Shown here piece by piece: positions 50,471-64,000 of a stretch of DNA of 64,000 nucleotides. Under the pieces are notes generated by a model that did not search any database, was not told the origin of the DNA, and saw nothing but the letters and a program-made list of their open reading frames with translations. Origin of the DNA: a virus. Its lineage: Duplodnaviria > Caudoviricetes. Position numbers and translations under genes: made by a program. The DNA is taken from positions 12,579 to 76,578 of IMG/VR virus record IMGVR_UViG_3300033066_002431; one strand, written 5' to 3'. Position 1 is the first letter of the stretch; each line of letters begins with the position of its first letter.

Positions 50471-50480
50471 TTCGGGCGTT

Positions 50481-51068: not shown

Positions 51069-51126
51069 GGGGAGAAGACCTCTTCTGAGGGGAGAAAAAA
51101 CTTTCTTGAGGGTGGGTGAAGAAAAA

Positions 51127-51158: not shown

Positions 51159-51205
51159 CAGGGAGTCGACGGCGAGGACAGCCGAGACGAAGAAGGACGG
51201 ACCCC

Positions 51206-51394
51206 ATGATCAAGCTCACCAAGAAGATGATGCAGGCGGCGAAGGCGATGACGACCGAGCGCCGTGCCCTGATGGATGAGCTGCTGAACGAGGCGCGCGC
51301 GACGCGCCCCGGCATGACGGCCGAGGAGACGGTCCGCTGGATGCCGGTGAGCTACCAGCCCGACGTGGCGGCCATCCTCACTCTCGGGTTGTGA
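51206..51394 (+). CDS. small hypothetical protein
   Basis: 62 aa after P2. Confidence 0.6.
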   Translation: MIKLTKKMMQAAKAMTTERRALMDELLNEARATRPGMTAEETVRWMPVSYQPDVAAILTLGL

Positions 51395-51448
51395 GAGGGG
51401 CCGGGGGGCTCGTCCGGGGGGACGGTTTCAGCTTCAGCGGAGGATACC

Positions 51449-51676
51449 ATGGCGACTTTCCAGTTTTCGAACACGGCCGACTCCACCATGACCAGCGCGC
51501 TCGACGCCATCACCCTCGGGGACGCGCTCGACAAGCTCGCGCTCGACGCGGGCTACCTGACGTGGAGCCTCGCGGTGGACGCGGGGGCCTTCGACCCGAG
51601 CGAGATGGCCGTGAGGAAGGACGAGACGGTGTGGCTGTTCAAGGGCGGGCGGTGGGTCGTCTCAGCCACGCTGTAG
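51449..51676 (+). CDS. small hypothetical protein
   Basis: GGAGG RBS; 75 aa. Confidence 0.6.
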   Translation: MATFQFSNTADSTMTSALDAITLGDALDKLALDAGYLTWSLAVDAGAFDPSEMAVRKDETVWLFKGGRWVVSATL

Positions 51677-51729
51677 AGGCTGCGGGGGGGAGTGGTTCTG
51701 GTCGGGGGGCCATGCTTCTGGAGGTTCAC

Positions 51730-52011
51730 ATGAATGTCATCGTGGTTGGCGTTGGGCGGACGGACATCTCGGTGCTGGCGAACGCGGGTAGCAGCGAGGA
51801 AGACTGGGCAGCGTTCAGCCGCTCGACGAACGCAGCCGGGCGCCACATCGCCGACGTGGCCCGCCGTGAGGGCGAGTCGTGGTGCGTGACCGTCCGCGAC
51901 AGCGACGTCACCGAGGCCGAGCTGGACGCGGACGATGGGGTGCGCGCCTACTGCCGCGAGGTGCCGGCGGACGACCGGCGCGAGGTGGATCCCGCCCTCT
52001 CCGGGGAGTGA
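51730..52011 (+). CDS. small acidic hypothetical protein
   Basis: GGAGG RBS, ATG at 51730; 93 aa. Confidence 0.6.
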   Translation: MNVIVVGVGRTDISVLANAGSSEEDWAAFSRSTNAAGRHIADVARREGESWCVTVRDSDVTEAELDADDGVRAYCREVPADDRREVDPALSGE

Positions 52012-52014
52012 GCG

Positions 52015-52278
52015 ATGGACGTGAAGAGCCCGCTTTTCGAGACCGTACAGGCGTGCGCCGTGGCCCTTCTCGGGGGCGCCGTGCTCCACGCGAGCGACGT
52101 CACAGCCGGCAACGGCGTGGTCATCGACTGGCGTGTGGTGAAGAGCGGGGAGACCATCCAGAACGACGGCGACGCCTTCGACACGGCGTACCTGTTCGTG
52201 ATTGTCGCTGGGGTGGAAGCTGCCCACCGTGCGGCGACGGAAGCTCGCGCGGACAATCGACCGGGAGGCGCGAGTTAA
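52015..52278 (+). CDS. small hypothetical protein
   Basis: 87 aa; TAA abuts P3. Confidence 0.55.
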   Translation: MDVKSPLFETVQACAVALLGGAVLHASDVTAGNGVVIDWRVVKSGETIQNDGDAFDTAYLFVIVAGVEAAHRAATEARADNRPGGAS

Positions 52279-52310
52279 ACGTTGACGGTACCGTCAACGT
52301 GAATTATCAA
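52279..52310 (+). promoter_or_regulatory. palindromic promoter/operator P3
   Basis: Perfect 22-bp ACGTTGACGGTACCGTCAACGT; TTGACG-N17-TATCAA. Confidence 0.9.
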
Positions 52311-52356
52311 GATGGAGTCGGTGGCGCGAAGGAAGCGGCCCGACAGGAGAGAGACC

Positions 52357-52617
52357 ATGGCGACGATCATCGCAAAGTTCCCCGGCACCTGTGCTTCATG
52401 CCGCTGCGCGATCAAGGCCGGCGACAAGATCGAGTGGCAGAAGGGCGGGCCCTCCCGGCACGTTGTCTGCCCCGCGGGCGGCCAGCCGGCGGTGAACGCG
52501 AACCGCACCGCGCCCCCGTCGCCTACTCGCCGTGGTCGTCCCTGGCGCCCCTGCGGTTACCCCGGGTGCAATCCGAGCTACTGCGACGAGTGCGACGGCG
52601 AAGGGTACGGCCACTGA
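52357..52617 (+). CDS. double zinc-finger mini-protein
   Basis: AKFPGTCASC...GDKIEW...HVVC and CGYPGC...CDEC; AGGAGAG RBS. Confidence 0.7.
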   Translation: MATIIAKFPGTCASCRCAIKAGDKIEWQKGGPSRHVVCPAGGQPAVNANRTAPPSPTRRGRPWRPCGYPGCNPSYCDECDGEGYGH

Positions 52618-52628
52618 AAAGGCCTCGC

Positions 52629-52666
52629 GCGAGCCCCGCCCCGCACCCGAAAGGGGCGGGGCTCGC
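52629..52666 (+). promoter_or_regulatory. conserved intergenic hairpin, copy B
   Basis: GCGAGCCCCGCCCC-GCACCCGAAA-GGGGCGGGGCTCGC, followed by TTGGAGG and the ATG at 52682. Confidence 0.75.
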
Positions 52667-52681
52667 TGCGTTGGAGGCACC

Positions 52682-52951
52682 ATGCTCAGGCTCGACAACA
52701 TCGCTCCCATCCTGCCCGTTCTTCAGACCATGAAGGCGGGGAACAACCACCTCGGGATCCTCCGCGGCATCGCGGACGTGCTCGAAGACGCCGACCTCTC
52801 GCGCTCGATCCAAATCCTCGAGAAGCTCGCGCAGCACGGCATCACCAAAGACCTCCGGCCGCTCCGCGACTTGCTCTACCGGGTGACGATGGATCAGGCT
52901 CGCGCGAAGATGACCGCGGACGCCTTCCACGCCGTCTGGATGGCGAGCTAA
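52682..52951 (+). CDS. hypothetical protein
   Basis: GGAGG RBS; 89 aa. Confidence 0.6.
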   Translation: MLRLDNIAPILPVLQTMKAGNNHLGILRGIADVLEDADLSRSIQILEKLAQHGITKDLRPLRDLLYRVTMDQARAKMTADAFHAVWMAS

Positions 52952-52962
52952 GGAGCACGACC

Positions 52963-53226
52963 ATGCCCGGCAAAGCCCCCAGCAAGGAAGCTCAGGAAGC
53001 CCGCCGCGACAGCCCGGACAGGGCCCTCGTTCGCGAGCGCATCGCGCTCATCGGACAGGACAAGGTCGGGCGGCTCGTCGCGGCCGACTGGGACGTGAAG
53101 AACCCACGCGACGCGAGCACGATGATCTCCAAGTACATCTCGGGTGAGCGCACCATCAACGCGACCGCCTACGTGCAGCTCCTCGGCGTCCTCGGGTTCG
53201 GAGTCACCCGGACCGCCCCGGAGTGA
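52963..53226 (+). CDS. possible XRE-like HTH protein
   Basis: AAGGAG RBS; GQDKVGRLV...ASTMISKYISGERTI...YVQLLGVLG. Confidence 0.55.
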   Translation: MPGKAPSKEAQEARRDSPDRALVRERIALIGQDKVGRLVAADWDVKNPRDASTMISKYISGERTINATAYVQLLGVLGFGVTRTAPE

Positions 53227-53251
53227 CAATCGACAGGAGGGAGGAGAAAAA

Positions 53252-53283
53252 GCGTTGACGGTACCGTCAACGCGAATTAAGAA
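53252..53283 (+). promoter_or_regulatory. palindromic promoter/operator P4
   Basis: Perfect 22-bp GCGTTGACGGTACCGTCAACGC; TTGACG-N17-TAAGAA. Confidence 0.9.
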
Positions 53284-53289
53284 AGGGGT

Positions 53290-53544
53290 GTGAGCAAGAC
53301 GAACAACGAGACGGGCGAGACGGTCACCATCAACGGCACGGCGTTCACCGTCACCAAGCGGGAGAGCGCCGTGGAGCCCTACCTGCTGACGAAGGTTGGC
53401 GGGCGGGGCCTCGCGTACACCGCGATGCGGAACGCCAAGCGGCCGCACCTGCTGTTCCTGGTGAACGCGAACCAGCGGGGGTCCAGCGCGGTCACGAACG
53501 TCTGGATCACCGATGAGGGCGGCACGATCCGCCAAGCGCAGTAA
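53290..53544 (+). CDS. small beta-rich protein (probably leaderless)
   Basis: GTG lies 6 nt after the P4 -10 box. Confidence 0.6.
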   Translation: MSKTNNETGETVTINGTAFTVTKRESAVEPYLLTKVGGRGLAYTAMRNAKRPHLLFLVNANQRGSSAVTNVWITDEGGTIRQAQ

Positions 53545-53603
53545 ACCGGAGCGGGGGGCGGTGCCCGGCCGTACCGGGCTTCCACCGATTGAGGAGATCG
53601 ACC

Positions 53604-54227
53604 ATGTTCAAGAACCCCGTCCCTGTCGCCCCGACTTCGCCTTCCGCCCGCACGCACACCGCCTATCTCGACGAGCACATGGAGCGCCCCTCGGTGCCCG
53701 CCGTCGGATTGTGGTGTTCCTACGTGGGGGATGGCGCCCCCTCGAACGCTGCGGGCGCACGAACGGGCCTCGGCACCACGCAGGAAGAGGCGCACGCAGC
53801 CGCCGGCCACTGGGCCAACCAGGCGGCCTATGCGCGGTGCCGGCGCATCGTGCTCGCAGATCGGGCGCTGCCCGTCTTCGAAGACGCCGTCGCGCGGAGG
53901 TACTTCACGAACGCGCTCAGTAACCCCGAGCCGACCCCCAGCGAGATCGAGGCCGCTCGCATCTTGAAGGCGAACGACTGGGCCGGCGGCTGGGCTTCAG
54001 CGTGGCGCGCGCTGCATGCGCCGGTCGTGGTTCCTCGCTGGGATGAGAGTGCCACGTTCCCCGACATCGCTGCTACGCACGACCCGGACGGCACCCCGCG
54101 TTATCTGACGTACCCCTCGCGCAAGCCCCGCCCCTCACCCCTTCCGGGGCAGGGGTTTGCCGCGTTGAAGGAGCTTCACCATGTCGACGACTCGTATCCA
54201 CGGAGAGACCCCCGAGCAGCGTGCTGA
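53604..54227 (+). CDS. hypothetical protein
   Basis: GAGGAG RBS, ATG at 53604. Confidence 0.55.
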   Translation: MFKNPVPVAPTSPSARTHTAYLDEHMERPSVPAVGLWCSYVGDGAPSNAAGARTGLGTTQEEAHAAAGHWANQAAYARCRRIVLADRALPVFEDAVARRYFTNALSNPEPTPSEIEAARILKANDWAGGWASAWRALHAPVVVPRWDESATFPDIAATHDPDGTPRYLTYPSRKPRPSPLPGQGFAALKELHHVDDSYPRRDPRAAC

Positions 54228-54354
54228 GAGGCTCGCCATCTCCCGACAGAACGCCGCCTTTTGGGAGGACGTGCTGCGCTCCCTCCCGCTGGTCCCGACC
54301 GAGCCCGCCAGCAAGCCGGCGACGCCTCCCGCGACCTCGCCAGAGGCACCGTGA
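54181..54354 (+). CDS. small hypothetical protein (57 aa; below the ORF-track cut-off)
   Basis: AAGGAG RBS; MSTTRIHGETPEQRAERLAISRQNAAFWEDVL... Confidence 0.5.
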   Translation: MSTTRIHGETPEQRAERLAISRQNAAFWEDVLRSLPLVPTEPASKPATPPATSPEAP

Positions 54355-54596
54355 CCCGCGTCGAGACGAGCGAGGCCGGGGGCTCTTCTCGGTGGTGGTC
54401 GGAAGCCTTCCTGCGTCGCGCCACGTGCCCGCTGGCGTGCCGCTCGCTCATCCTCGGGATGCTGCGGGACTGGGATGCGACGGTCACCGAGGAAGAGGCC
54501 GAAGCCTTCCGCGCGTGGGGCGCGCAGCTCCCTCACTGGGATGGCCCAGCGGGCCAGCCGTTCACCTTCACGCCGGTGGAGCCGTCCGCCTCGTAG
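54351..54596 (+). CDS. small hypothetical protein
   Basis: GTG overlaps the upstream TGA; 81 aa. Confidence 0.5.
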   Translation: MTRVETSEAGGSSRWWSEAFLRRATCPLACRSLILGMLRDWDATVTEEEAEAFRAWGAQLPHWDGPAGQPFTFTPVEPSAS

Positions 54597-55245
54597 AGGT
54601 CCACAACGGGCACTTCTTGGCGTTCTGCCGGTGCCCTTGCTCTCCGCACTTCCCACACCTCTTCAGCGCCTTTGGCATGGGCGATCGGCGCTTGTCGACC
54701 GGCACCCGGCGTCCTCGCCGGCACGAGCTGCATGCGCGTCGCGGGTCCTTCTTCGGGGCTGGACGCTTCCCGCAGCGATAGCAGCGGCCGGCGGCGATCC
54801 GCTCTTCGGCCCGCTGCTTCTGCTTGTCGGCCATCACCTTGCGGCAGCCCTTGCAGCGCGTCTTCGTGAAGCACGGAGCAACACCGCAGTCGCGGCACAT
54901 GCCATCCGCGGCACGCCGCTCAACGGTGGCGTTCGTGCCGTACGAGGGTGCGGTCGTCCGCCTCTCCTCGCAGCCAGCGCACAGCCGGTCTCGCACGGTC
55001 GCAGGAACGAGCCCGCACCTCATGCATAGGCCCGCGGCCTTCCGCGCCAGCATGCGGCGGCGTTCCTGGCGGCTGTGCTTCTTCGTGCAGACGGCACAGA
55101 CCGTCTTGCCGGGCGACACCGGCCGCCGGAAGCACGACTGGCACTTCCATCGCTTCTTGGCGAGCTTGCGCTTCCGCTGCATGTACCCGCGGCGCTGGAC
55201 GCGACTCGCAGCGGTCCGCGGGTAGCTCTTCCGGCGACGCTTCAT
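54568..55245 (-). CDS. tandem Cys4 zinc-finger protein with Arg-rich N-terminus and C-terminal knuckle
   Basis: Four CxxC-x(9-13)-CxxC units plus CGKCGEQGHRQNAKKC; ATG overlaps the TGA of the cysH-like gene. Confidence 0.75.
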   Translation of the reverse strand: MKRRRKSYPRTAASRVQRRGYMQRKRKLAKKRWKCQSCFRRPVSPGKTVCAVCTKKHSRQERRRMLARKAAGLCMRCGLVPATVRDRLCAGCEERRTTAPSYGTNATVERRAADGMCRDCGVAPCFTKTRCKGCRKVMADKQKQRAEERIAAGRCYRCGKRPAPKKDPRRACSSCRRGRRVPVDKRRSPMPKALKRCGKCGEQGHRQNAKKCPLWTSTRRTAPPA

Positions 55246-56066
55246 GCGTAGCAGGCTGCGTCCGGGGCGAGGCCTCGCAAGACTTCGAAGAGGCTCGGGT
55301 AGTACCGCTTGAGCCATGCCGCTGCCCCCTTCGCCGCGTGCGCACCGGGGATCCACCACGACTTGCGGATGAGCCACGGCTTCTGGCGGTGCTCGGGAAG
55401 CCAGCCGCAACAGCGGTACACGTGGAGCGGCTCCACGTCGTGCGCTTGCAGGTAGGCGAACACGTCGATCCCCGTCCAGCCGGCCAGCGGCGCACAGCGC
55501 ACCTGACCGCTCTTGAGCTGGTAGGTGGCCCCCTTCGCGGTGAGGAGCCTCTCGCGCCGGCCGCTCTCCTCGGCGCGGAGCCCCCAGAGCATGAGGTCGC
55601 GCCCCTCGTTCGCGCGCTCCATCACGCCGTAGAAGCATGCCTTCGAGAGGCCGGCACTCCGGCTGTGCATGTCCTCGCCCGCGGAGAGGGCACCACGGCG
55701 CTCCAGAAGCCACGCGAGCGGCGACGTCTCCGGCCGGAGGATCTCAAGGTCGACGGCGAAGCGGGACGCGAGGTCGCGCACGTAGGCTTCCTCGCCGGGG
55801 TAGTCGAGATCGTCCTTCTCCGAGATGGTGTGGACGTTCGCTTGGAGCTCGACGCGCACGAGATGGACGAGCGCCGTCGAGTCCTTCCCACCGGACCACG
55901 ACAGGACCGGCGTTGCCGCGTTGCCGAGCGCACGGCCGACGATCCGCTTCGCCGTGTCGACGGCTCGACGGTGCGAGAGGGACCGCGCGTGCATGGCAAA
56001 GGTGATGCGCCAGCGGTCCCACACGCGGACGTCTTCGGGGGAGAGAACGGGCTCGACGTGTTCCAT
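55242..56066 (-). CDS. cysH: CysH-like PAPS-reductase-family protein (type IV-B-associated style)
   Basis: VLSWSGGKDSTAL, LWGLRAEESGRR, CAPLAGWTGIDVFAYL. Confidence 0.8.
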   Translation of the reverse strand: MEHVEPVLSPEDVRVWDRWRITFAMHARSLSHRRAVDTAKRIVGRALGNAATPVLSWSGGKDSTALVHLVRVELQANVHTISEKDDLDYPGEEAYVRDLASRFAVDLEILRPETSPLAWLLERRGALSAGEDMHSRSAGLSKACFYGVMERANEGRDLMLWGLRAEESGRRERLLTAKGATYQLKSGQVRCAPLAGWTGIDVFAYLQAHDVEPLHVYRCCGWLPEHRQKPWLIRKSWWIPGAHAAKGAAAWLKRYYPSLFEVLRGLAPDAACYA

Positions 56067-57157
56067 CAGAACAGGGTGCGCCAACGCGCGAACCTGTCGA
56101 CGGGCTTCGTCTTCGACCTGGGGACGGGGATGCTGTTCTCGTAGTCGTTCACGAGGAGCTGCTTGCACTGCGCGTGATGCACGGGCTCCGTCGCCGGCTG
56201 GCCTGCAAAGCGCTTCTCGAAGCGGGCTCGCTTCTTCGCGTCGATCGGCATCGTCGCGAGAAGATGCTCTCGGTACGCGAGCCACGTCGCGAACCCGGTA
56301 GGGAGCTTCTGCACGTCGTAGAGGTGCGCGCCCTGCGCATGGTGGGCGGCGCAGTGGACGCCCTTCAACCGCTTCACCAGACGCGCGTACGTGTCGGGCT
56401 CCAGAGCGGCGAGGTCGGGGAGGCACCTGAAGCTCATCTCGTGAATCAGGTTGCTCACCCGGTTGTCGTTGTAGACGCCGCCGTTCATGGCCCAGCGGAG
56501 ATCGTAGATCCGGTTGTACGGCGCGCGCGTGTCGGCGACGAACCGCCAGACGTCGCCCATCCCCCAGTCATAGAGCGGGTACGCCTTGAAGCTCGTCGCG
56601 TTGCCAGTGCGCGAGGTCCACGGCACGCCATCGACGCCGGCGTTCTTCACCACCGCGCGGAAGCGGTTGATGCCTTCCTCCGCGCGCAGGCCCACCAAGA
56701 AGGTGGTGTCCGGCGTCTTCTCTTCGAGCCACTCGAAGAAGGGGTAGAAGCGGGCGGGGTAGTCGCCGTCGATGTAGTGGATCGAGCCTGGCTCCTTCTC
56801 GCGCATCCACGGCTCGCCCGGCCCCCACGCGTAGAGATGGTCTTCCGCGTAGCTCGTCGCGTTCGTCATGCGGATCGGCACCTGATACCAGGCGGGGATC
56901 ACGGCCGGGTGCGCCATCATCGTGCGCATGAGGGCGATGGTCCCCTCGTACTCCGCTTCCTGATCCAGGAAGAAGAGCGTCACCTTGCGGCCCCGTCGCC
57001 CGGCTTCGTCCACGGCAAGGTGGAAGAGCACTGTGCTGTCCTTGCCGCCCGAGACCGACACGTTCACGCGCTCGAATCGGTCGAACACCCATGCGACTCG
57101 GGCGCGGGCGGCGTCGAGCACGCTCTCCGGCAGGTACGTCTTGACGATCTGCCTCAC
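56066..57157 (-). CDS. ibrA: IbrA-like PAPS-reductase-family protein
   Basis: VSVSGGKDSTVL, FFLDQEAEYEGT, GLRAEEGINR, YPLYDWGMGDVW. Confidence 0.8.
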   Translation of the reverse strand: MRQIVKTYLPESVLDAARARVAWVFDRFERVNVSVSGGKDSTVLFHLAVDEAGRRGRKVTLFFLDQEAEYEGTIALMRTMMAHPAVIPAWYQVPIRMTNATSYAEDHLYAWGPGEPWMREKEPGSIHYIDGDYPARFYPFFEWLEEKTPDTTFLVGLRAEEGINRFRAVVKNAGVDGVPWTSRTGNATSFKAYPLYDWGMGDVWRFVADTRAPYNRIYDLRWAMNGGVYNDNRVSNLIHEMSFRCLPDLAALEPDTYARLVKRLKGVHCAAHHAQGAHLYDVQKLPTGFATWLAYREHLLATMPIDAKKRARFEKRFAGQPATEPVHHAQCKQLLVNDYENSIPVPRSKTKPVDRFARWRTLF

Positions 57158-58062
57158 GGTTCCCCCGCCTTGCTCTGGTGTCTCAGGTAGGCGTCGAGCA
57201 GCCGGTTCGTGTGCGTCACGAGGCTGTCGACCTCAAGAGAGAGCCATTCGTCGAACGGGAGGTCCGTGCGCACGAAGCGGTGTTCCGCCCGGCCGTAGAG
57301 GTGCCGCATGTCGTGGGGGATGGTGCGCCCCGGGTAGCGCTCAGTGATCCACCGCGCGAGCTTCGTCTTCACGCTGGTGATGCTCTTCTCGCTCGCGAAG
57401 AGGCCGTCGCGGAACGCCGCGTACTCCGCATGGTGTTCGGCGCTCACGAGGAGCATCTTCGCGAAGAACGTCGGGAGGCCTCGGATCTGCCGGTCGACGA
57501 TCGCGCCCTTCCACGTGAGGCTGGCGATGCGCTCGGCGTCGCACGGGTTCTGCGGGAGACCGCCGTCCAGCCAGCGATCGTAGTCTTGCTCGATCGCGTA
57601 GCTGTGGTGGTAGCCGAGCAAGCTCCGATCGAAGAACGCGAATGGGAAGTAGACGCGCCACGGTGCGACCTCGTAGGGCAGCACGTCGACCACGATGCGC
57701 TTCCGCGCGGCCTTCCGACGCATGTACCCCCGGCGCACGTCGAGCCTGTTGCCGATGGTGCGGCGCTGGTCTGCGAGGATGATCGCCAGGCTGTCGGACG
57801 GGAGCGCGGCGACGGAGGCCACATTCGCGGGCGTCCCGTACGTCTCCCACGGCGACACGCTCACGATGAGGTTGTGGGCGCGCGCGAGACGCTCGATCGC
57901 GTCGGTCGTCTGCACGTGCGTCGCCGCGTTCGGGACGTAGAGCACGTGCGAGATGCTCGGGTCCGCCCGGAAGTAGGCGTCGAGCGTCTCGAAGGTGAAC
58001 GTCGGCCGCTGCGTGAAGATGGCGAAGCCGGAGCCCGCGAGCATGCGATCCACGCGGGTCAC
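57154..58062 (-). CDS. hypothetical protein between ibrB and ibrA
   Basis: GTG at 58062 overlaps the ibrB TGA; 302 aa; IVVDVLPYEVAPWRVYFPF. Confidence 0.7.
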   Translation of the reverse strand: MTRVDRMLAGSGFAIFTQRPTFTFETLDAYFRADPSISHVLYVPNAATHVQTTDAIERLARAHNLIVSVSPWETYGTPANVASVAALPSDSLAIILADQRRTIGNRLDVRRGYMRRKAARKRIVVDVLPYEVAPWRVYFPFAFFDRSLLGYHHSYAIEQDYDRWLDGGLPQNPCDAERIASLTWKGAIVDRQIRGLPTFFAKMLLVSAEHHAEYAAFRDGLFASEKSITSVKTKLARWITERYPGRTIPHDMRHLYGRAEHRFVRTDLPFDEWLSLEVDSLVTHTNRLLDAYLRHQSKAGEP

Positions 58063-58763
58063 TTCGTCGACCCCTTCTCGAACGACCACGCGCGCCCATA
58101 GCTGCCGCTCGCGAGGTTCTGCGCAGCCCCGCCAAGCTGGCGCATGCGAATCAGTTCTTCATCGGACTTCACCAGCCCGACACCCACGTGCTCGTCGGTC
58201 CATCCGGCCTTGTCCAGCGCGGCGACGATGGCGACCTCGCGCTCGACGCTGTGCGTGCCGCGCGCCTGGTTGTGGAGCACCGTCGCCGACATCTGGTCCG
58301 CTTCGCTCATGGTCCCCTGCAAGAGCGAGAACGGCAGGTAGCCGTGGACGCGCGCGGAGACCTCGGGATCCGACCCGCAGACGACGTGCCGGTGGAAGCC
58401 GTCCGTGATGCGCACGGGACCGGCTTCAAGCCGCGCGCCGACGATGGGCATCGTGATCCCGTAGGTCTTCATGCTGTGCGCGAGCGACACCATCTCGGGC
58501 GGCGGCACGGCGTTCGGGTTCCAGGTGTTCGGCTCGCTCTCGGCGCGAGGGATCCAGAGGACGCAGTCGACGGGCTCGCTCGCGAACGGAGAGACCGCGT
58601 GGAGCGCCGTGCGCGCGCGGTTGAGGGCTTCCACCTTGGCGGCGAGGCCGAGTCCATCGATGGCCCGCACAAGCTCGTCGATCGCCCCTTCTACGCGGGC
58701 TTCCGCCTCGGACCGGAGCGGCCCCCTGTCCCGGTCAAACAAGCTCGTCTGCGCGGGCTTCAT
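58059..58763 (-). CDS. ibrB: IbrB-like ParB/Srx protein
   Basis: SPFASEPVDCVLW...NTWNPNAVPPPEM...MPIV...ITDGFHR. Confidence 0.85.
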   Translation of the reverse strand: MKPAQTSLFDRDRGPLRSEAEARVEGAIDELVRAIDGLGLAAKVEALNRARTALHAVSPFASEPVDCVLWIPRAESEPNTWNPNAVPPPEMVSLAHSMKTYGITMPIVGARLEAGPVRITDGFHRHVVCGSDPEVSARVHGYLPFSLLQGTMSEADQMSATVLHNQARGTHSVEREVAIVAALDKAGWTDEHVGVGLVKSDEELIRMRQLGGAAQNLASGSYGRAWSFEKGSTK

Positions 58764-59119
58764 GTTGCCCACCGGACCCACGTCCAGCCGCCCTTGCTCG
58801 CGCGCAGTTTCACGAAGCCTGCGGCCACGTGTGCCTTCTCGCTACCGACGTTGCCGTGGTGGATGTACGCGACGCAGTGAAGGCCCTTCGCGTGCTCCTC
58901 GTAGGCGGCGCGCGTGAGGCCCCGGCCGCGGTACGCCGGCAGCACGAAGATCGGTCCGAGCCGGTAGCCGTGCGGGGTGTCGTGCGGGTGGCAGAAGCCG
59001 ACCACGCGCCCCTCGCAGACGATGGGGCGCCGGAGGTGCGCGTCCTTCCCGCGCAGGTGGATGTGCGGTTCCTTGCGGGCCGCTGCGACGACGTCGTCCG
59101 GGATCTCAAGGTCCATCAC
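58760..59119 (-). CDS. GNAT acetyltransferase
   Basis: LGPIFVLPAYRGRGL (acetyl-CoA motif A) and NVGS...AAGF. Confidence 0.8.
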   Translation of the reverse strand: MMDLEIPDDVVAAARKEPHIHLRGKDAHLRRPIVCEGRVVGFCHPHDTPHGYRLGPIFVLPAYRGRGLTRAAYEEHAKGLHCVAYIHHGNVGSEKAHVAAGFVKLRASKGGWTWVRWAT

Positions 59120-59739
59120 GACACCTCACCGAAGGTGTGCCGGTAGCTCTCCGACTGCCGAGCGCCACGGTGCCCGGGGAGCGTGGACGGCCCCGGGCGG
59201 TGCTGCACGAGCGAGGGGAGGCGCACGTACACCTTCGCGCCCTTGCTCGACAGGTAGCCGCCGAGGAGCAGATCGGCCGCGCGGTTGTGCTGGGGGTGCC
59301 GCGCGTACCAGCCCGGGGCGTAGGCCTCGACTCCGGCAGCAAGCTCGCTCCGGATGATGAACCCCTGCGACATGGAGAAGCTGCTCGGCGCGAGCGACCG
59401 ATGCGCGTACCCGTTCCGCAGCATCTCGAGGTCGCGGCGAGCGCGCGAGAACAGCGTCACCACGTCGGCGCCATCGGGGACGTTCAGCGCGCGGGTGCCG
59501 AAGCCTGGACAGAGGACCACGTCGTCTTCGAGCTGGAGAACCCACGGCCGACCCACCTTCGCGGCGTCTGCGAGCGCGCGGGGGAAGTCGACCCGTGCGG
59601 GCGTCCCCTCTTCGTGAGCGCAGATCAGCAGCACGGCGCCGGGGCACTCGCTCTTGATCTGGGTCATGAGCGCTTCCACGAACGCCGCTCGGCGGGGAAG
59701 CATCGCGGGGATGGTGATCGTGACGTCGTTCCACTTCAT
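59116..59739 (-). CDS. GT-A fold glycosyltransferase
   Basis: WVLQLEDDVVLC (xDD motif), QGFII, ADLLLG, PSLVQH. Confidence 0.75.
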   Translation of the reverse strand: MKWNDVTITIPAMLPRRAAFVEALMTQIKSECPGAVLLICAHEEGTPARVDFPRALADAAKVGRPWVLQLEDDVVLCPGFGTRALNVPDGADVVTLFSRARRDLEMLRNGYAHRSLAPSSFSMSQGFIIRSELAAGVEAYAPGWYARHPQHNRAADLLLGGYLSSKGAKVYVRLPSLVQHRPGPSTLPGHRGARQSESYRHTFGEVS

Positions 59740-60041
59740 GAGAACCTCTTCCGCAGCGTGGCCACGCCCTCTGCGAGCGCCACGTCCGGATCCCTCTTGA
59801 TCTGCTTCAGAAACGCGGGTCGCACGAGCGCTTCCCACGCGCGCGTGATGGTGGCTTCGTCCTCCCCGAGGCTCGAAAGCTCCTTGGCGAGACGGAGCGC
59901 CGCGTGCCAATCCTCGGCAGCGACGGCGGCACGCACTTTCTCCAGCTTCGAGTCGGGCTGACCAGGGGCCTTCGCGGTGATGGGAGTAGGCTTCGACGGT
60001 CGGGGCTTGCCGAAGAGGGGCCGACGGTCGCGACGAGCCAT
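59736..60041 (-). CDS. hypothetical protein with a basic N-terminus
   Basis: 101 aa; stop overlaps the GT start (ATGA). Confidence 0.6.
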   Translation of the reverse strand: MARRDRRPLFGKPRPSKPTPITAKAPGQPDSKLEKVRAAVAAEDWHAALRLAKELSSLGEDEATITRAWEALVRPAFLKQIKRDPDVALAEGVATLRKRFS

Positions 60042-60043
60042 GG

Positions 60044-60880
60044 TCAGGTGGCAACGTCGGTCAAGGTCGACAGGTACCACCTGCGCCAGTCGGTACCGAC
60101 GCAGTGCTGATATTTCGAGAGGAAGTCGCGAGCTTTCTCCGGAGTTTCCCCGTAGCGCTCGACGAGCTTCGCCCACGACGCTTCCACGACCGGACGCGGC
60201 GCATACAGCACGGTGCGGTCGTCATCGTAGTCGTGGGCGTGCATCACGTACACGACCTCGCCGGAGACAGCGCGGCGCTCGTCCACCCGGACGTAGTGCG
60301 AGGCGCCCTCCGTCCACGTCGCGACGGTGACGCTCGGTGCCGTCGCCAGCACGCTGGAATCGAAACTGTCGGTTCGAACAAGCCCCGTGGTGAGCTGCTC
60401 GACCTTCGCCTTCTCGGCCTCGATCGCCGCCTTCGCGGCTTCCTTTGCGGCTCGCGCGTCATCCTGCTTGGCCTGCTCGGCAGCTTCTTCCGCTTCGAGC
60501 TTCGCTGTCTCCTCGGCGGTCGCCAAGCGGCATCCGAGGTGGGCGTGCCAGCCGCCGCCCCGCATGTCGCCCATGTCTTCGTTGTCCTCTTCGCTCTGGT
60601 AGGACGCTCGCTGCGTCAGCACGGTCGCCACCTTCCCTTTGTTCGGGCCGCTGGCGATGCGGAAGGTGCGTCCCACCTCGGAGTCGGTGCCCGGCTTGCC
60701 GTAGCCGCGAAAGTCAAGCGAGACGCTGAACTCCACGCCCTGCGCAGCCGCGAGCCGCTTCTCCGGGCACTTCACGTGCTTCGATCCGGTGGCCTTGCTC
60801 CACTCGATCTGTGCTCCCGCGGGAAAGGAACCCCCGCACGCTTTGCACTGCTCGGGAAACTTCGAGGTAATCACGGCCAT
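60044..60880 (-). CDS. protein with an N-terminal zinc finger (paralog of 52357..52617), probably leaderless
   Basis: MAVITSKFPEQCKAC...GAQIEW...HVKC; ATG 6 nt from the -10 box. Confidence 0.7.
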   Translation of the reverse strand: MAVITSKFPEQCKACGGSFPAGAQIEWSKATGSKHVKCPEKRLAAAQGVEFSVSLDFRGYGKPGTDSEVGRTFRIASGPNKGKVATVLTQRASYQSEEDNEDMGDMRGGGWHAHLGCRLATAEETAKLEAEEAAEQAKQDDARAAKEAAKAAIEAEKAKVEQLTTGLVRTDSFDSSVLATAPSVTVATWTEGASHYVRVDERRAVSGEVVYVMHAHDYDDDRTVLYAPRPVVEASWAKLVERYGETPEKARDFLSKYQHCVGTDWRRWYLSTLTDVAT

Positions 60881-60886
60881 GCGCGT

Positions 60887-60915
60887 TTGATAAGACAACT
60901 CGCGCGCTATGTCAA
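60887..60915 (-). promoter_or_regulatory. promoter TTGACA-N17-TATCAA
   Basis: The -35 box overlaps the TGA of csf3. Confidence 0.75.
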
Positions 60916-61646
60916 GCGACCGTGCCGAGCGCGACGCGAGGAACCGCGCACACGCAGACGTTCTTGTTGGCCCAGTACGGCGCGCGCGTGGCCTTCTCCC
61001 CGCAGATTGGATCGTTCAACTTCGGGCAGCCTTTGCCGAGGGGTAGCGAGCGCATGGGCTCGCCCTTCCACGCAAGCGAGCGCTCCTCCGGGTCCGGCAT
61101 GTACTCCACGCCGAGGATGGTCCCGAGGCCCGACGAGTAGCCACGTCCGATGGCGGTGGCGTCGCCGAGGAGATCCCGCACGAGAGCCGCGTCCCCTGCG
61201 AGGTGGAAGTCGAGCCACGGGGTGGTGAGCGCCTGCACGGGGATGTTCGTGCTCTTGAACGCTCCGCCCGCGATGGTGAGCCGCCCGCCGCTCATGGCTT
61301 CGAGACGTGCGCGCTTGCGTCGCCATCGGAGCGACTCGACGGCGATCGGGGGCGGCCACCCCCACGACGCGCACGCGATCGGCAGCCCCATGATCTCAAC
61401 GTCCGCGACGGGGATCGGGATCTCTGGGTTGAGGCCTCGGGGGCACTCGGCGAAGACGTCGTCGGAAAGGCGGCTCGTCTCGCGCTCCACGACGAGCCGC
61501 TGAAGCAGCCCGTCGATCTGGACGCCGTTGTCGCTCCACGCGACGGGCGAGGAGAACCACACGCGCACGGTGAAGCTCTTGCTCTTCGAGGCGCGCCATC
61601 GCTCCGCCCGCGCGAGCCACGCCGTGTTGTCGTCGAGCCAGCTCAC
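60912..61646 (-). CDS. csf3: Csf3 (Cas5-like) type IV subunit
   Basis: GTG at 61646; FTVRVWFSSPV...IDGLL, Gly-rich AIGRGYSSGLG, C-terminal RAPYW. Confidence 0.75.
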   Translation of the reverse strand: MSWLDDNTAWLARAERWRASKSKSFTVRVWFSSPVAWSDNGVQIDGLLQRLVVERETSRLSDDVFAECPRGLNPEIPIPVADVEIMGLPIACASWGWPPPIAVESLRWRRKRARLEAMSGGRLTIAGGAFKSTNIPVQALTTPWLDFHLAGDAALVRDLLGDATAIGRGYSSGLGTILGVEYMPDPEERSLAWKGEPMRSLPLGKGCPKLNDPICGEKATRAPYWANKNVCVCAVPRVALGTVA

Positions 61647-63112
61647 GCCGTCGCCTCGCGCGCCTTGCGGCCCTTCTTGGGCGCCGGCTCGGTGGTGCCG
61701 GCGAGCCACTCGAGGATCGGCTCCCGGTGCGTCGACAGGTAGTCGAGGTACTCCGCGCCGCTGGGGAGGGGCTCCGCCTTCTCGGCGGGCTTGTACCCGA
61801 GCGTGGAGACCTGGCCGTAGCCGCGGCTGGTCTGCGCGCCAAGCAGGCCCACGTCCGCGAAGTCTTCGAGCAAGTCGGCGAGGCAGCTCTGCGCGAGCGT
61901 GGAGACCGTCGACAGGCTCACCACGCTGAACGTGTGGAAGAGCCGTGCGCCGGGCTTGATGGCCTCCGTGTTCCAGATCATCTGCGCGCCGCCCTCGTCA
62001 GCCGAGAGGTCGCCGCCGGGAAGGTCCCGGTGCGCGTGACGCACGCCAAGCCGCAAGAGCGTCCAGTCGTCGGAGGGAAGGAGGCTCGCCGCGAAGTCCT
62101 CGTAGTCGAGCGGTCGGCCAAGCACGTCGGTGGGCTCCATCATCCGGTAGAGCTTCCACGCATTCTCTCGGCACAACAGCGTGCAGTCGTGGACGCGGAG
62201 CAGACCGCTCATGATCTGCTGTTCGATGCAGCCGCCGAGCAAGTCGATCGCGGGGATGGTGCTTCGCGCACGCATGCGGACGTCGAGCCGCGCGGTGGCT
62301 CCGTCGGCCCCCTTCTCGATGGTGCCGCCCGAGAACAGCTCTTGCGCGCGACGCTGCGAGAGGTCGGTCTCGGGCTTCACCTTCAACGCGCGGAGCATCC
62401 TGGCGAAGAAGAGGTCGCGCCACTGCCCCTTGATGGCGTTGCCCGTGTAGATCGGCACGAGCGCCTGCTCTCCGGTGAAGGGGTCGACCTGGGGTTGCCG
62501 GCGGAAGAGGCAGACGTTGCCTGCCTTCTCGTCGTGGCCGTGCGCGAGCGGAGAGACAACCTGGAACCACGCGCGGTGCTGCTTGGGGCTCTGCATGGCC
62601 TCGCCGGGGAGGACGCCCGTCCAGCGCGGGCCGTCGTGGTCGATGCTCTTCGGCAGGTAGGCGATGTCCTGTTCGCTCGGCGGCGTCTGCGCGAAGGTGA
62701 TGAAGAAGTCGCTGCCCTCGTTCACGACGATGCGCACGGCTTCGAGGCTCGTGTGCTGCGCGATGATGGCCCACGGCACGACGCGCTTGCCCTCGTGAAC
62801 GATGCCGGGAAGGTCGCCCGCGATCTCGTCGGGGATAAACGCCGCGACCGACCGAAAGTCGCGCGTCTCGCCATCGGCGATCTCGGCGCTGCCCGCGTTC
62901 AGCTCGATCTCGAAGCGCTTCGCGAGCGCCTGCACGAACGCCATGGTCGAGCGCGCGGCGATGGTGCCCGCGCGCAGGTAGTCGCTCATCTCGCTGGGGA
63001 GGTTGCGGTGACGAGCGGCACCGATCCGCCGCTTGTCGACGCGGCGGAACATGGCGCGGAGCAGATACGCGAAGCGCACGCGCGCCTCGTAGACTTCGGT
63101 CTTGGTGGCCAT
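61643..63112 (-). CDS. csf2: Csf2 (Cas7-like) with a fused N-terminal Cas11-like helical domain
   Basis: VVSPLAHG...LFRR...VPIYTGNAIKGQWRD...LFSGG...IDLLGG...GLLRV...CREN and GAQTSRGYG; about 165-aa helical N-terminus. Confidence 0.8.
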   Translation of the reverse strand: MATKTEVYEARVRFAYLLRAMFRRVDKRRIGAARHRNLPSEMSDYLRAGTIAARSTMAFVQALAKRFEIELNAGSAEIADGETRDFRSVAAFIPDEIAGDLPGIVHEGKRVVPWAIIAQHTSLEAVRIVVNEGSDFFITFAQTPPSEQDIAYLPKSIDHDGPRWTGVLPGEAMQSPKQHRAWFQVVSPLAHGHDEKAGNVCLFRRQPQVDPFTGEQALVPIYTGNAIKGQWRDLFFARMLRALKVKPETDLSQRRAQELFSGGTIEKGADGATARLDVRMRARSTIPAIDLLGGCIEQQIMSGLLRVHDCTLLCRENAWKLYRMMEPTDVLGRPLDYEDFAASLLPSDDWTLLRLGVRHAHRDLPGGDLSADEGGAQMIWNTEAIKPGARLFHTFSVVSLSTVSTLAQSCLADLLEDFADVGLLGAQTSRGYGQVSTLGYKPAEKAEPLPSGAEYLDYLSTHREPILEWLAGTTEPAPKKGRKAREATA

Positions 63113-64000
63113 TCAGGATCTCCGGGTGAGAGGGGGCATGCGAAGGAGGGGAACGAAGAAGGCCCACCATCGGGCCGCGACGTGCGGACGAAGGGGCGCG
63201 ACGCGGGCGGACCACCTGTCGGGCGCAGCGACGGCGAGAGGCGCACCACGGGGCGCCCGCAGGGTCGTGATGGCCTCGCGCGCGTCGTCGGAGCCAACCC
63301 CGCCGGCGCGAAGGTCGGCAAGCAGCGGCTCGCAGAGAACGCGCAACGTGGTCCAGAGCGCGACGTCGACCACGATGTTCGTGTCGTCCACGGCGAGGTC
63401 GTACCGGCGCGCGTCGTACGAGACTTTCGCAAAGGGCAGGGTGTGCTTCGTCTGGAGCTTCCACAGCGGGTCCGCCGGGTGATGCACGCCGCCCGCGCCG
63501 TCCGGACAGAACGTCCGGTGACAGTTGGCCTCCCCGCCGTGGTCGATGCCGTAGAGGGGGCACCACGCGACGAAGGGCGGGGCCGGCGGGTTGAGGAGCG
63601 CCGTCAGGGCGTCAGGCCGGACGAAGGGCCACTCGCGGGCCGCCGGCCAGTCTGCGGGCTTGGGGATCGGTCGCAGGGCGACGGGGTAGACGCCGCCAGG
63701 ACCGACCGCATCCGAACAGCGCGCGAAGCACAGGCCGGTCTTCACGTAGAGCGAGCGGAACGACCACACGCAGCCGGCGCACAGCCGCTCGGTGCCGTGC
63801 GGCCAGAGGATCGCCGCGTTGCGGATCGTAGTGAACTTGTCGCTGATCGCCTGATCGACGCGGTAGCGGGAGTCGAGCGCCCCGCAGTGCGCGCAGGCGT
63901 CGCCAGTGCCGCCGAGGGGCAGGATGGGGGTGCCGTCGCTCTCCACGGGGGAAGGGCGGCCGGCGGCTTCCCACACGAACGAGGTGGCGCGGGTAGTCAC
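63113..64000 (-). CDS. csf1: Csf1 (Cas8-like) type IV large subunit (start at the window edge)
   Basis: CAHCG...ISDKFT...LCAGC zinc finger; LLNPPAPPF and KH motifs. Confidence 0.75.
   Translation of the reverse strand: MTTRATSFVWEAAGRPSPVESDGTPILPLGGTGDACAHCGALDSRYRVDQAISDKFTTIRNAAILWPHGTERLCAGCVWSFRSLYVKTGLCFARCSDAVGPGGVYPVALRPIPKPADWPAAREWPFVRPDALTALLNPPAPPFVAWCPLYGIDHGGEANCHRTFCPDGAGGVHHPADPLWKLQTKHTLPFAKVSYDARRYDLAVDDTNIVVDVALWTTLRVLCEPLLADLRAGGVGSDDAREAITTLRAPRGAPLAVAAPDRWSARVAPLRPHVAARWWAFFVPLLRMPPLTRRS

What the first reader, a model, noticed from the sequence alone, without database searches (positions are those of the whole stretch)
54568..60041. Coupled operon with two PAPS-reductase-family enzymes, ParB/IbrB, GNAT and glycosyltransferase downstream of the type IV-B genes
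Eight genes are joined by 1-4 nt overlaps: ORF, GT-A, GNAT, IbrB-like, unknown, IbrA-like, CysH-like, zinc finger. A single cysH-like gene is the known partner of type IV-B loci, and IbrAB pairs are known from prophages (established). Finding both PP-loop enzymes with an acetyltransferase and a glycosyltransferase in one unit suggests a multi-step chemical pathway (adenylation or sulfur transfer, acylation, glycosylation) that modifies phage DNA, RNA or a nucleotide. It may be guided or scaffolded by the Csf complex. This is a candidate undescribed Cas-linked modification or anti-defence system.
Basis: partly seen in the sequence, partly recalled or inferred. Interest (0 to 1): 0.85.

Follow-up and report, generated by a model that had tools for sequence, protein, structure and literature searches.

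The report
Phage type IV-B Cas with IbrAB enzymes
A provirus carries a guide-less type IV-B CRISPR-Cas gene set followed by a run of predicted ATP-using, DNA-binding and group-transfer enzymes, and the same combination recurs in unrelated phages and an archaeal plasmid, which gives a testable lead to a Cas type of unknown function.

Summary
Eight minus-strand genes (54568-60041) are joined by 1-4 nt overlaps, downstream of csf1-csf2-csf3 and one further gene.

Gene identities hold:
- GT-A-like transferase
- GNAT
- IbrB-like ParB/Srx protein
- IbrA-like PP-loop enzyme with DUF3440
- CasCysH-like PP-loop enzyme
- zinc-ribbon protein

The "unknown" gene folds as a shrunken Snf2-type ATPase core without ATPase motifs. 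Cultured phages such as Flavobacterium phage FCL-2 carry Snf2-IbrB-IbrA. So this is the usual phage IbrAB cassette with a dead motor.

The set recurs with type IV-B genes on about 16 distinct contigs, in eight linked gene orders, in otherwise dissimilar genomes. One is a haloarchaeal plasmid. The cassette also occurs without csf. csf plus CysH also occurs without it, as in the reference Mycobacterium sp. JS623 plasmid.

It is therefore a recurrent composite, not an obligate unit. The zinc-ribbon gene and gene g0 are lineage-specific.

Neither PP-loop enzyme keeps a conserved cysteine, so sulfur chemistry is unlikely. Nucleic-acid modification is inferred, not shown.

I found no paper describing this link. 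This scan has noted the same pairing on other DNA several times.

The parts
63113..64000 (-). csf1 (type IV Cas8-like large subunit). The ORF reaches the last base of the record.
   Evidence: PADLOC typeIV_Cas8 1.6e-10. Homologues align from residue 1.
61643..63112 (-). csf2 (Cas7), 489 aa, with about 180 extra N-terminal residues where type IV-B loci have a separate cas11.
   Evidence: PADLOC typeIV_Cas7 4.6e-44 over residues 182-473. Relative L032 has a separate cas11 (124 aa) and csf2 (333 aa).
60912..61646 (-). csf3 (Cas5), GTGA overlap with csf2.
   Evidence: PADLOC typeIV_Cas5 1e-28; TIGR03116 4.4e-6, below its cut-off.
60881..60915 (-). Promoter-like TTGACA-N17-TATCAA-N6 directly before the g0 ATG. 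The -35 box overlaps the csf3 stop codon.
   Evidence: Read from the sequence. The consensus scanner did not call it because the -10 box ends in A. Function is inferred.
60044..60880 (-). g0, 278 aa, N-terminal CxxC...C zinc ribbon and an acidic/basic coiled-coil region. Loosely associated and lineage-specific.
   Evidence: No Pfam hit. Homologues appear in L015, L016, L017, L028, L031 and L032 at varying positions.
59736..60041 (-). g1, 101 aa, basic N-terminus and helical C-terminus. Conserved directly upstream of the GT gene in the near clade.
   Evidence: phrog_18237 1.3e-12. Present in 13 related loci.
59116..59739 (-). g2, GT-A-fold (nucleotide-diphospho-sugar transferase-like) protein with conserved E71-D72-D73 (D73 invariant, E71 and D72 in at least 90% of homologues) and invariant H180.
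   Evidence: phrog_854 glucosyltransferase 5e-5. 67 homologues. Conserved columns. Atlas features 0.98 and TM 0.77-0.82 to clusters that include glycosyltransferase families. No Pfam hit and no significant PDB sequence hit.
58760..59119 (-). g3, minimal GNAT acyltransferase (119 aa) with a conserved RGRG acyl-CoA loop.
   Evidence: Pfam Acetyltransf_1 7.1e-6, above its cut-off. Conserved R64 and R66.
58059..58763 (-). g4, IbrB-like ParB/Srx-fold protein with DGxHR and NxARGxH motifs.
   Evidence: phrog_2159 9.8e-44. Conserved D121 G122 H124 R125. Weak PDB ParB hit 0.0099. No Pfam hit at E up to 0.1.
57154..58062 (-). g5, shrunken Snf2-like two-lobe core without Walker A or DExH motifs (pseudo-ATPase). 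Always lies next to IbrA.
   Evidence: AF2 model pLDDT 93.8. Foldseek ZorD 7.8e-7 and SsoRad54 1.5e-6. VIA-align to CSB: Z 16.9, 282 residues aligned, rmsd 4.3. Atlas TM 0.73 to phage SNF2 clusters. No ATPase motifs in 27 family members. 132 clusters in 1.84 billion representatives.
56066..57157 (-). g6, IbrA-like PP-loop (SxSGGKDS) adenine-nucleotide alpha-hydrolase domain plus a helical DUF3440.
   Evidence: Pfam PAPS_reduct 2.4e-13 and DUF3440 2.7e-8; phrog_2302 2.4e-78. AF2 model pLDDT 79. Foldseek to PAPS reductase, FAD synthase, CysD, TilS and TtuA. No cysteine conserved at 90% or more.
55242..56066 (-). g7, CasCysH-like PP-loop enzyme (SGGKDS) with no conserved cysteine.
   Evidence: Pfam PAPS_reduct 2.5e-14. 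tblastn hits only actinobacterial type IV-B plasmids, including Mycobacterium sp. JS623. The local HMM scores the JS623 CysH at 6.9e-39. Conserved columns.
54568..55245 (-). g8, very basic protein with four CxxC...CxxC zinc ribbons and a C-terminal CCHC knuckle. Last gene of the string, not conserved in related loci.
   Evidence: Translation. No family hit. No homologue in any fetched locus. Atlas double-zinc-ribbon leads score below 0.9.

Best explanation
[quoted passage not shown] Its accessory region has taken in the mobile phage IbrAB cassette.

Shown:
- The cassette here is IbrB (ParB/Srx fold), a motif-dead Snf2-like protein and IbrA (PP-loop ATP-using enzyme with DUF3440), together with a GT-A-fold transferase.
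- A small GNAT travels with the Csf/CasCysH side. It occurs with csf and CysH where IbrAB is absent, and it is missing from csf-less cassettes.
- The components recur together in many gene orders and in dissimilar genomes.

Inferred, step 1: IbrB and the dead Snf2-like protein hold double-stranded DNA. ParB-like partners do this for DNA-modifying enzymes in the Dnd and Dpd systems, and Snf2 cores grip duplex DNA.

Inferred, step 2: IbrA and CasCysH use ATP to adenylate a target group. This is the common chemistry of PP-loop and PAPS-reductase-fold enzymes. Neither enzyme has a conserved cysteine, so the chemistry is not sulfur transfer.

Inferred, step 3: the activated or neighbouring position is then decorated by interchangeable transferases. 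Here these are GT-A and GNAT. In relatives the same slot holds DNA methyltransferases.

Inferred, step 4: the RNA-loaded Csf filament supplies localisation or scaffolding.

The net effect would be covalent marking of nucleic acid, most likely DNA. That could serve counter-defence, competition between mobile elements, or control of gene expression.
For: - Gene calls and domains.
- Seven of seven g5-anchored contexts with enough upstream flank carry csf3 and both PP-loop genes.
- CysH-anchored viral contigs: 5 of 8 distinct loci carry IbrA within 10 kb. The baseline is 223 of 50,697 phage records.
- Eight different gene orders keep the set linked to csf.
- Flanks share 0-4 ORFs with the rest of this genome.
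- A haloarchaeal plasmid has csf2-csf3-CysH-(methylase-like)-ParB-g5-IbrA on one strand.
- In the IbrA tree, csf-linked rows fall in four separate lineages, with csf-less rows among them.
- g5 has an Snf2-like fold without ATPase motifs.
- FCL-2 has SNF2-ParB-IbrA.
- DNA methyltransferases sit in the same slot in L016, L029 and L038.
- PP-loops are conserved and cysteines are not.
- The function of type IV-B is unknown and the complex binds RNA (PMC7937560, PMC8175902).
Against: - No chemistry, substrate or protein contact was tested.
- The cassette stands alone in L013 and L019, and in cultured phages.
- Type IV-B with CysH stands without the cassette in Skermania phage SPI1, L003, L008, L010 and the reference JS623 plasmid.
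- A promoter-like site between csf3 and g0 suggests a separate transcript.
- Accessory genes of phages tend to cluster regardless of function.
- The sample of loci is small and partly related by descent.
- The only published phenotype of IbrAB is activation of prophage gene expression. I state this from my own knowledge (Sandt et al. 2002, not read here) and from the product names.
Confidence: 0.5

Rival explanations
1. Two independent modules sit side by side by accident of phage genome organisation. Type IV-B with CasCysH and the IbrAB cassette each do their own job. They collect in the same accessory-gene hotspot without working together.
For: Each module occurs without the other. A promoter-like site separates csf3 from g0. 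IbrAB in FCL-2 sits between terminase and portal, far from any Cas gene.
Against: In most linked loci the cassette lies between csf3 and CasCysH, inside the type IV-B unit, on one strand and with overlapping stop and start codons. Eight gene orders keep the link. The flanks are otherwise dissimilar. The same link is found in an archaeal plasmid.
Confidence: 0.25
2. The module is a gene-expression or life-cycle regulator that does not covalently modify nucleic acid. IbrAB-type proteins would act as co-activators of prophage genes, and the RNA-binding Csf filament would act as a post-transcriptional partner.
For: The IbrA and IbrB names come from activation of prophage eib genes. The product name 'co-activator of prophage gene expression' appears in phage records. 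The record is a provirus.
Against: Two conserved PP-loop catalytic sites, a GNAT with an intact acyl-CoA loop and a GT-A protein with a conserved EDD (DxD-type) motif and an invariant His argue for enzymatic chemistry. Methyltransferases occupy the same slot in relatives.
Confidence: 0.1
3. The enzymes make or alter a small molecule rather than polymer DNA or RNA. Candidates are a nucleotide, a nucleotide-sugar or a signal.
For: PP-loop, GT-A and GNAT enzymes are typical of nucleotide-sugar and cofactor pathways. The closest solved folds to IbrA include FAD synthase and CysD.
Against: The constant partners all bind nucleic acid: ParB/Srx, the Snf2-like core, the Csf complex and the zinc-ribbon proteins. 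DNA methyltransferases replace the transferases in relatives.
Confidence: 0.08
4. The module is a Dnd- or Ssp-like DNA phosphorothioation system.
For: IbrB/IbrA resemble DndB/DndC in fold. There are weak DndC hits (PADLOC 9.5e-5; TIGR03183 0.004).
Against: Scores are far below the family cut-off (16 bits against 290). Neither PP-loop family has a cysteine conserved at 90% or more. The record has no cysteine desulfurase. No DndD or DndE hits appeared in the PADLOC scans of the locus genes.
Confidence: 0.03

Closest known systems
Subtype IV-B CRISPR-Cas (csf1-cas11-csf2-csf3 plus cysH-like), reference locus on Mycobacterium sp. JS623 plasmid pMYCSM03 (PMC7937560, PMC8175902)
   Same: csf1, csf2 and csf3 are present. 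A CasCysH-clade PP-loop gene lacks the catalytic cysteine. No CRISPR array, cas6, dinG or adaptation genes were seen. The locus is carried by a mobile element.
   Different: There is no separate cas11; Csf2 instead carries about 180 extra N-terminal residues. Seven further genes lie between csf3 and cysH, including IbrB, a dead Snf2-like protein, IbrA, GT-A and GNAT. The JS623 locus has none of these.
Phage IbrA/IbrB cassette (E. coli IbrAB and YbdN/YbdM; phrog_2302 plus phrog_2159), for example Flavobacterium phage FCL-2 gp07-gp09
   Same: IbrA has PAPS_reduct plus DUF3440 and is 42% identical to FCL-2 gp09. It is adjacent to a ParB/Srx protein with DGxHR. An Snf2-type third partner is present.
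   Different: The Snf2 partner is only 302 aa, has no ATPase motifs and lies between IbrB and IbrA. A GT-A gene is part of the cassette. The cassette is embedded in a type IV-B locus.
DndB/DndC of DNA phosphorothioation and DpdB of 7-deazaguanine DNA modification
   Same: A ParB-fold protein is paired with a DNA-modifying enzyme. The PP-loop/PAPS-reductase fold is shared with DndC.
   Different: There are no conserved cysteines, no cysteine desulfurase, no DndD or DndE, and no TGT/DpdA. Family scores are far below the cut-offs.
Snf2-family ATPases (CSB, ISWI, SsoRad54, Zorya ZorD)
   Same: The two-lobe core fold matches: Z 16.9 over 282 residues, TM 0.73 to phage SNF2 clusters.
   Different: It is about 60% of the size. 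No Walker A or DExH motif is present in any of 27 family members. HMMER finds no sequence-level link to long Snf2 proteins.

Membership tests
Subtype IV-B CRISPR-Cas | csf1, csf2 (Cas7) and csf3 (Cas5) together | tested here: met
   PADLOC 1.6e-10, 4.6e-44 and 1e-28. The genes are contiguous and translationally coupled.
Subtype IV-B CRISPR-Cas | cas11-like small subunit | tested here: inconclusive
   There is no separate gene. The 180-aa N-terminal extension of Csf2 has no Cas11 HMM hit and no similarity to the Cas11 of L032 (E 1.5). Position alone suggests a fusion.
Subtype IV-B CRISPR-Cas | cysH-like accessory gene of the Cas-associated clade, lacking the catalytic cysteine | tested here: met
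   g7 hits only type IV-B plasmids in PLSDB, including JS623. The local HMM scores 6.9e-39 on the JS623 CysH. No cysteine is conserved.
Subtype IV-B CRISPR-Cas | no CRISPR array, cas6, dinG or adaptation genes | tested here: met
   No short-range direct repeats resembling an array in 44000-64000. No Rfam hit. No such Cas hits in the PADLOC scans. Caveat: the record is a fragment, 54% complete by CheckV.
IbrA/IbrB phage cassette | IbrA: PAPS_reduct domain with PP-loop plus DUF3440 | tested here: met
   Pfam 2.4e-13 and 2.7e-8, both above their cut-offs. SxSGGKDS is conserved.
IbrA/IbrB phage cassette | adjacent ParB/Srx-fold IbrB with a DGxHR-type motif | tested here: met
   phrog_2159 9.8e-44. 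D121 G122 H124 R125 are conserved. Pfam ParB models gave no hit at E up to 0.1.
IbrA/IbrB phage cassette | Snf2-type third partner | tested here: met
   Met at the level of fold only. FCL-2 gp07 next to ParB-IbrA is PF00176 at 4.1e-9.
Snf2 ATPases (as an active enzyme) | Walker A GxGK[ST] and DExH motifs | tested here: not met
   Neither motif is conserved in the 27 family members.
Dnd DNA phosphorothioation | DndC with conserved cysteines; DndA cysteine desulfurase; DndD and DndE | tested here: not met
   TIGR03183 scores 16 bits against a cut-off of 290. No cysteine is conserved. PF00266 is absent from the record. No DndD or DndE hit among the ten locus proteins scanned against PADLOC; g1 and g3 were not in that scan.
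Dpd 7-deazaguanine DNA modification | DpdA (TGT-family) transglycosylase | tested here: not met
   PF01702 is absent from the record. The record is incomplete.
GNAT acyltransferases | Pfam GNAT domain and acyl-CoA loop R/Q-x-x-G-x-G/A | tested here: met
   Acetyltransf_1 scores 26.7 bits against a cut-off of 20.7. The RGRG loop has R64 and R66 in at least 90% of homologues.
GT-A glycosyltransferases | GT-A fold with DxD motif | tested here: inconclusive
   E71-D72-D73 and H180 are conserved (D73 and H180 invariant). Atlas TM is 0.77-0.82 to clusters that include Glyco_transf_25 and Mannosyl_trans3. PHROG glucosyltransferase scores 5e-5. There is no Pfam hit and I made no model of my own.

The most novel reading that the evidence does not exclude
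The type IV-B Csf filament is a platform that brings a DNA-marking machine to nucleic acid chosen by its bound RNA. The machine would be IbrB, a dead Snf2 grip and IbrA/CasCysH adenylation, with swappable GT-A, GNAT or methyltransferase decorators. That would be RNA-directed epigenetic marking by mobile elements of bacteria and archaea, and it would explain why type IV-B has no nuclease.
Probability: 0.18. Interest if true: 0.95.

Novelty: new variant of a known kind. Interest (0 to 1): 0.72.

Why it matters
Type IV-B is the one widespread CRISPR-Cas subtype with no known function. The reviews I read name its cysH-like partner as the only clue. I found no paper in the searchable library that mentions a link to ParB or IbrAB.

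A recurrent, cross-domain link to a defined enzyme cassette narrows the hypotheses to ATP-dependent marking of nucleic acid. It also names concrete proteins to purify. The IbrAB family itself is present in hundreds of cultured phages and plasmids and has no known chemistry.

There are tractable entry points. One is Flavobacterium phage FCL-2, which has the cassette without Cas. Another is the plasmid of the cultured haloarchaeon Actinarchaeum halophilum, which has Cas plus the cassette.

Tried and rejected
- Near-identity DNA searches of the 5.5-kb region in the phage and plasmid collections found nothing.
- tRNA scan, Rfam at gathering threshold, and a direct-repeat scan for arrays found nothing.
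- The consensus promoter/terminator scan found no promoter, and terminator-like sites were not above the shuffles.
- The g2 profile against PDB sequences gave only weak, unrelated hits, the best at E 0.011.
- The g5 protein against cultured phages by tblastn gave no match.
- The genome-contig scan with the g5 profile gave one short archaeal MAG contig only. The metagenome scan gave five loci.
- The look-up of the window's own g5 protein in the assembly index found no record.
- The Csf2 N-terminus against the Cas11 of L032 showed no similarity.
- Complex prediction (IbrA + IbrB + g5) was unreachable, then declared unavailable. Nothing was folded.
- The look-up of sequencing runs listed no RNA holder.
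- A literature search on DUF3440, YbdN and YbdM returned nothing relevant.
- Phosphorothioation and 7-deazaguanine readings were considered and rejected on missing signature genes and residues.


Full report
**What the window is.** The window is the right 64 kb of a 76,578-bp IMG/VR provirus record. It has 68% G+C and CheckV rates it 54% complete. It carries terminase, portal, tail-sheath and tape-measure genes. At this G+C content the ORF lists are full of spurious frames. I therefore called genes from third-position G+C and from translations.

**The observation.** From 64000 down to 54568, all on the minus strand, lie:
- csf1 (63113-64000)
- csf2 (61643-63112)
- csf3 (60912-61646)
- g0 (60044-60880)

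The seven junctions from g1 to g8 are ATGA or GTGA overlaps, or a 1-nt overlap. g0 and g1 are 2 nt apart.

Between csf3 and g0 the sequence reads TTGACA-N17-TATCAA-N6-ATG. The -35 box overlaps the csf3 stop codon. The accessory string may therefore also be transcribed on its own.

Plus-strand genes converge on the end of g8, so g8 closes the unit. Overlapping genes are normal in phages and carry no weight by themselves.

**Identities.**
- PADLOC models identify Csf1, Csf2 (residues 182-473) and Csf3.
- g6 is PAPS_reduct plus DUF3440 (Pfam, above cut-offs) and phrog_2302 at 2.4e-78.
- g4 is phrog_2159 ParB-like at 9.8e-44.
- g7 is PAPS_reduct.
- g3 is a GNAT.
- g2 matches a PHROG glucosyltransferase at 5e-5.
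- g7 belongs to the Cas-associated CysH clade. Its only plasmid matches are 27 actinobacterial plasmids, among them the reference type IV-B plasmids of Mycobacterium sp. JS623. An HMM built from g7-like proteins scores the JS623 CysH at 6.9e-39.
- g2 has no Pfam hit. It has 67 homologues with E71-D72-D73 and H180 conserved (D73 and H180 invariant). The Atlas places it among viral nucleotide-diphospho-sugar-transferase-like clusters, with TM 0.77-0.82.
- g8 is a very basic protein with four zinc ribbons and a CCHC knuckle.
- g0 has an N-terminal zinc ribbon.

**The unknown gene g5.**
- It has 25 close homologues and no Pfam domain.
- With an alignment of 27 sequences, AlphaFold2 gives pLDDT 93.8 and pTM 0.90.
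- The top Foldseek hits are Snf2-family ATPase cores: ZorD 7.8e-7 and SsoRad54 1.5e-6.
- VIA-align gives Z 16.9 over 282 residues at rmsd 4.3 to CSB, spanning both lobes.
- The Atlas shape search gives TM 0.73 to phage SNF2 clusters.
- None of the 27 family members has a conserved Walker A or DExH motif.
- HMMER over 1.84 billion representatives finds only 132 clusters, all of 409 aa or fewer.

So g5 is a miniaturised Snf2-like core that cannot burn ATP. In Flavobacterium phage FCL-2 the gene just before ParB-IbrA is an SNF2-domain protein (PF00176, 4.1e-9). The window's IbrB-g5-IbrA triad is therefore the usual phage Snf2/IbrB/IbrA cassette with a dead motor.

**Catalytic residues.**
- Both PP-loops (SGGKDS) are conserved.
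- Neither family keeps a cysteine in 90% or more of its members. This agrees with the published remark that CasCysH lacks the CysH catalytic cysteine (PMC8175902).
- IbrB keeps DGxHR and NxARGxH.
- The GNAT keeps its RGRG loop.
- The IbrA model (pLDDT 79) matches PAPS reductase, FAD synthase, CysD, TilS and TtuA only through the N-terminal domain.
- No IbrA or IbrB structure has been solved.

**Recurrence.** I anchored searches on three different genes.
- CysH-anchored, IMG/VR: 10 loci, 8 distinct. All 8 have csf genes and 5 have IbrA.
- g5-anchored, public assemblies: all seven contexts with enough upstream flank have csf3 and both PP-loop genes.
- IbrA-anchored: one locus with csf and one without.

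Local HMMs over all loci show eight csf-linked orders and one csf-less order:
- csf-[variable]-g1-GT-GNAT-ParB-g5-IbrA-CysH, as in the window and eight further loci
- csf-CysH-ParB-g5-IbrA-GT-GNAT
- csf-ParB-g5-IbrA-GT-GNAT-CysH
- csf-ParB-g5-IbrA-GNAT-CysH
- csf-...-IbrA-ParB-CysH
- csf-ParB-g5-IbrA-GT-CysH
- csf-...-CysH-...-GT-GNAT-ParB-g5-IbrA
- a spread-out form (L015, L028)
- ParB-GT-g5-IbrA with no csf or CysH (L013 and L019; the short contigs L034 and L035 show the same order, but their flanks are too short to test for csf)

The 10-kb flanks of these loci share only 0-4 ORFs with the rest of this genome.

A complete plasmid of the cultured haloarchaeon Actinarchaeum halophilum carries csf2-csf3-CysH-(methylase-like)-ParB-g5-IbrA on one strand. 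Its IbrA is 51% identical to g6.

In an IbrA tree the csf-linked rows fall in four separated lineages, with csf-less rows among them. For example, L012 (linked) is sister to L019 (not linked), with support 89/87. The backbone is unresolved, so events cannot be counted exactly.

**Limits of the link.**
- IbrA-like genes occur in 223 cultured phage records and 723 plasmid records.
- Only Skermania phage SPI1 in the phage collection has a Csf2 relative. It has CysH but no IbrAB.
- The reference JS623 locus also lacks the cassette.

The two modules are therefore separable. Within the composite, the GT-A gene travels with the IbrAB side and is present in the csf-less cassettes. The GNAT travels with the Csf/CysH side: L003 has csf, GNAT and CysH without IbrAB, and no csf-less cassette has it. 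The sample behind this split is small.

g8 has no counterpart anywhere. In the nearest relatives (L016, L029) a C5 DNA methyltransferase follows CysH instead. g0 is loosely associated.

**Mechanism.** Shown: a recurrent composite of an RNA-binding Cas complex, two PP-loop enzymes without sulfur-chemistry residues, two DNA-binding-type proteins (ParB/Srx fold and a dead Snf2 fold), and swappable transferases (GT-A, GNAT, or DNA methyltransferases in relatives).

Inferred: ATP-dependent adenylation of a group on nucleic acid, followed by group transfer. DNA would be held by IbrB and g5, and the Csf filament would provide localisation. I put this at about 0.5 for 'functionally linked nucleic-acid-marking module'. 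I put it much lower, about 0.18, for true RNA-directed targeting.

Rivals, in descending order of likelihood:
- hotspot adjacency
- a non-covalent regulator
- small-molecule synthesis
- Dnd-like phosphorothioation

The last is disfavoured by the missing cysteines, the missing desulfurase and sub-threshold family scores. No TGT is present, which argues against a Dpd-like path.

**Literature.** The reviews and surveys I read describe type IV-B as array-less and of unknown function. They describe it as nearly always linked to cysH-like, and sometimes to an ADP-ribosyltransferase. They do not mention ParB or IbrAB (PMC8175902, 10.1101/780106, 10.1101/270033, PMC7937560, PMC10848311). Targeted searches found no paper on the link.

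**Earlier notes of this scan.** The scan reported type IV-B with IbrAB on other DNA several times. I treated those notes as leads. My own searches agree with the recurrence. They also agree that Snf2/IbrA/IbrB is a common phage module.

They disagree with one note, which said the Cas-linked versions always lack the Snf2 partner. Here, and in at least 14 related loci, a dead Snf2-like protein sits between IbrB and IbrA.

**Verdict.** It is a new variant of a known kind: type IV-B with an expanded, recurrent enzyme cassette. Its value lies in making the function of type IV-B testable.

Noticed in passing
window 61643-63112 (-); L032:5003-6375: Csf2 is 489 aa with about 180 extra N-terminal residues and no separate cas11. 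Relative L032 has a separate Cas11 (124 aa, PADLOC 2.8e-6) and a 333-aa Csf2. Csf2 of 470-520 aa recurs in L002, L004, L006, L007, L008 and L009. Sequence comparison of the extension with Cas11 found nothing (E 1.5).
   Followed up: partly
window 60881-60915 (-): TTGACA-N17-TATCAA-N6-ATG lies before g0, with the -35 box overlapping the csf3 stop codon. This implies a leaderless or near-leaderless transcript for the accessory genes.
   Followed up: partly
L030:6319-7761, L031:2066-3475, L017:1036-2397: Relatives carry a 450-480 aa protein with a Cas6-like domain directly after csf3 (PADLOC Cas6 2.4e-7; Pfam CRISPR_Cas6 weak). Type IV-B is said to lack Cas6. The window has g0 at that position.
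   Followed up: partly
L038 (NZ_CP071309.1 70722-76523): A complete plasmid of the cultured haloarchaeon Actinarchaeum halophilum YIM 93972 has csf2-csf3-CysH-(N6/N4 methylase-like, weak)-ParB-g5-IbrA on one strand. This is a cultivable system in which to test the link.
   Followed up: partly
L016:12848-14797, L029:12848-14551: In the closest relatives a C5 DNA methyltransferase (PF00145) follows CysH, where the window has the zinc-ribbon gene g8.
   Followed up: no
L033 (Flavobacterium phage FCL-2, NC_027125.1 4145-7009): SNF2-domain gp07, ParB gp08 and IbrA gp09 lie between the large terminase and portal genes. Mycobacteriophage homologues are also genes 4-5 at the left end, which hints at a link to DNA packaging.
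   Followed up: no
window 37052-40954 (-): A 1300-aa helicase with an SNF2-related domain (PF00176, 34 bits with neighbours; phrog_62) lies about 16 kb from the module. It is a possible active motor elsewhere in the same genome.
   Followed up: no
G000:C1:5680-7428 (outside the window); L031:3506-5167: A 583-aa gene near the left end of this provirus is 46% identical (E 3e-140) to a DUF8224 protein that sits inside the Cas-IbrAB module of L031.
   Followed up: no
window 63113-64000 and record ends: The csf1 ORF runs to the very last base of the record, and an ORF is open at the first base. The record is a provirus fragment, so genes upstream of csf1 are unseen.
   Followed up: no
L015:3830-4915: A third PAPS-reductase-family protein (361 aa; PADLOC BrxP 7.4e-13, DndC 3.9e-8) lies upstream in the spread-out version of the module on a 118-kb contig.
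   Followed up: no
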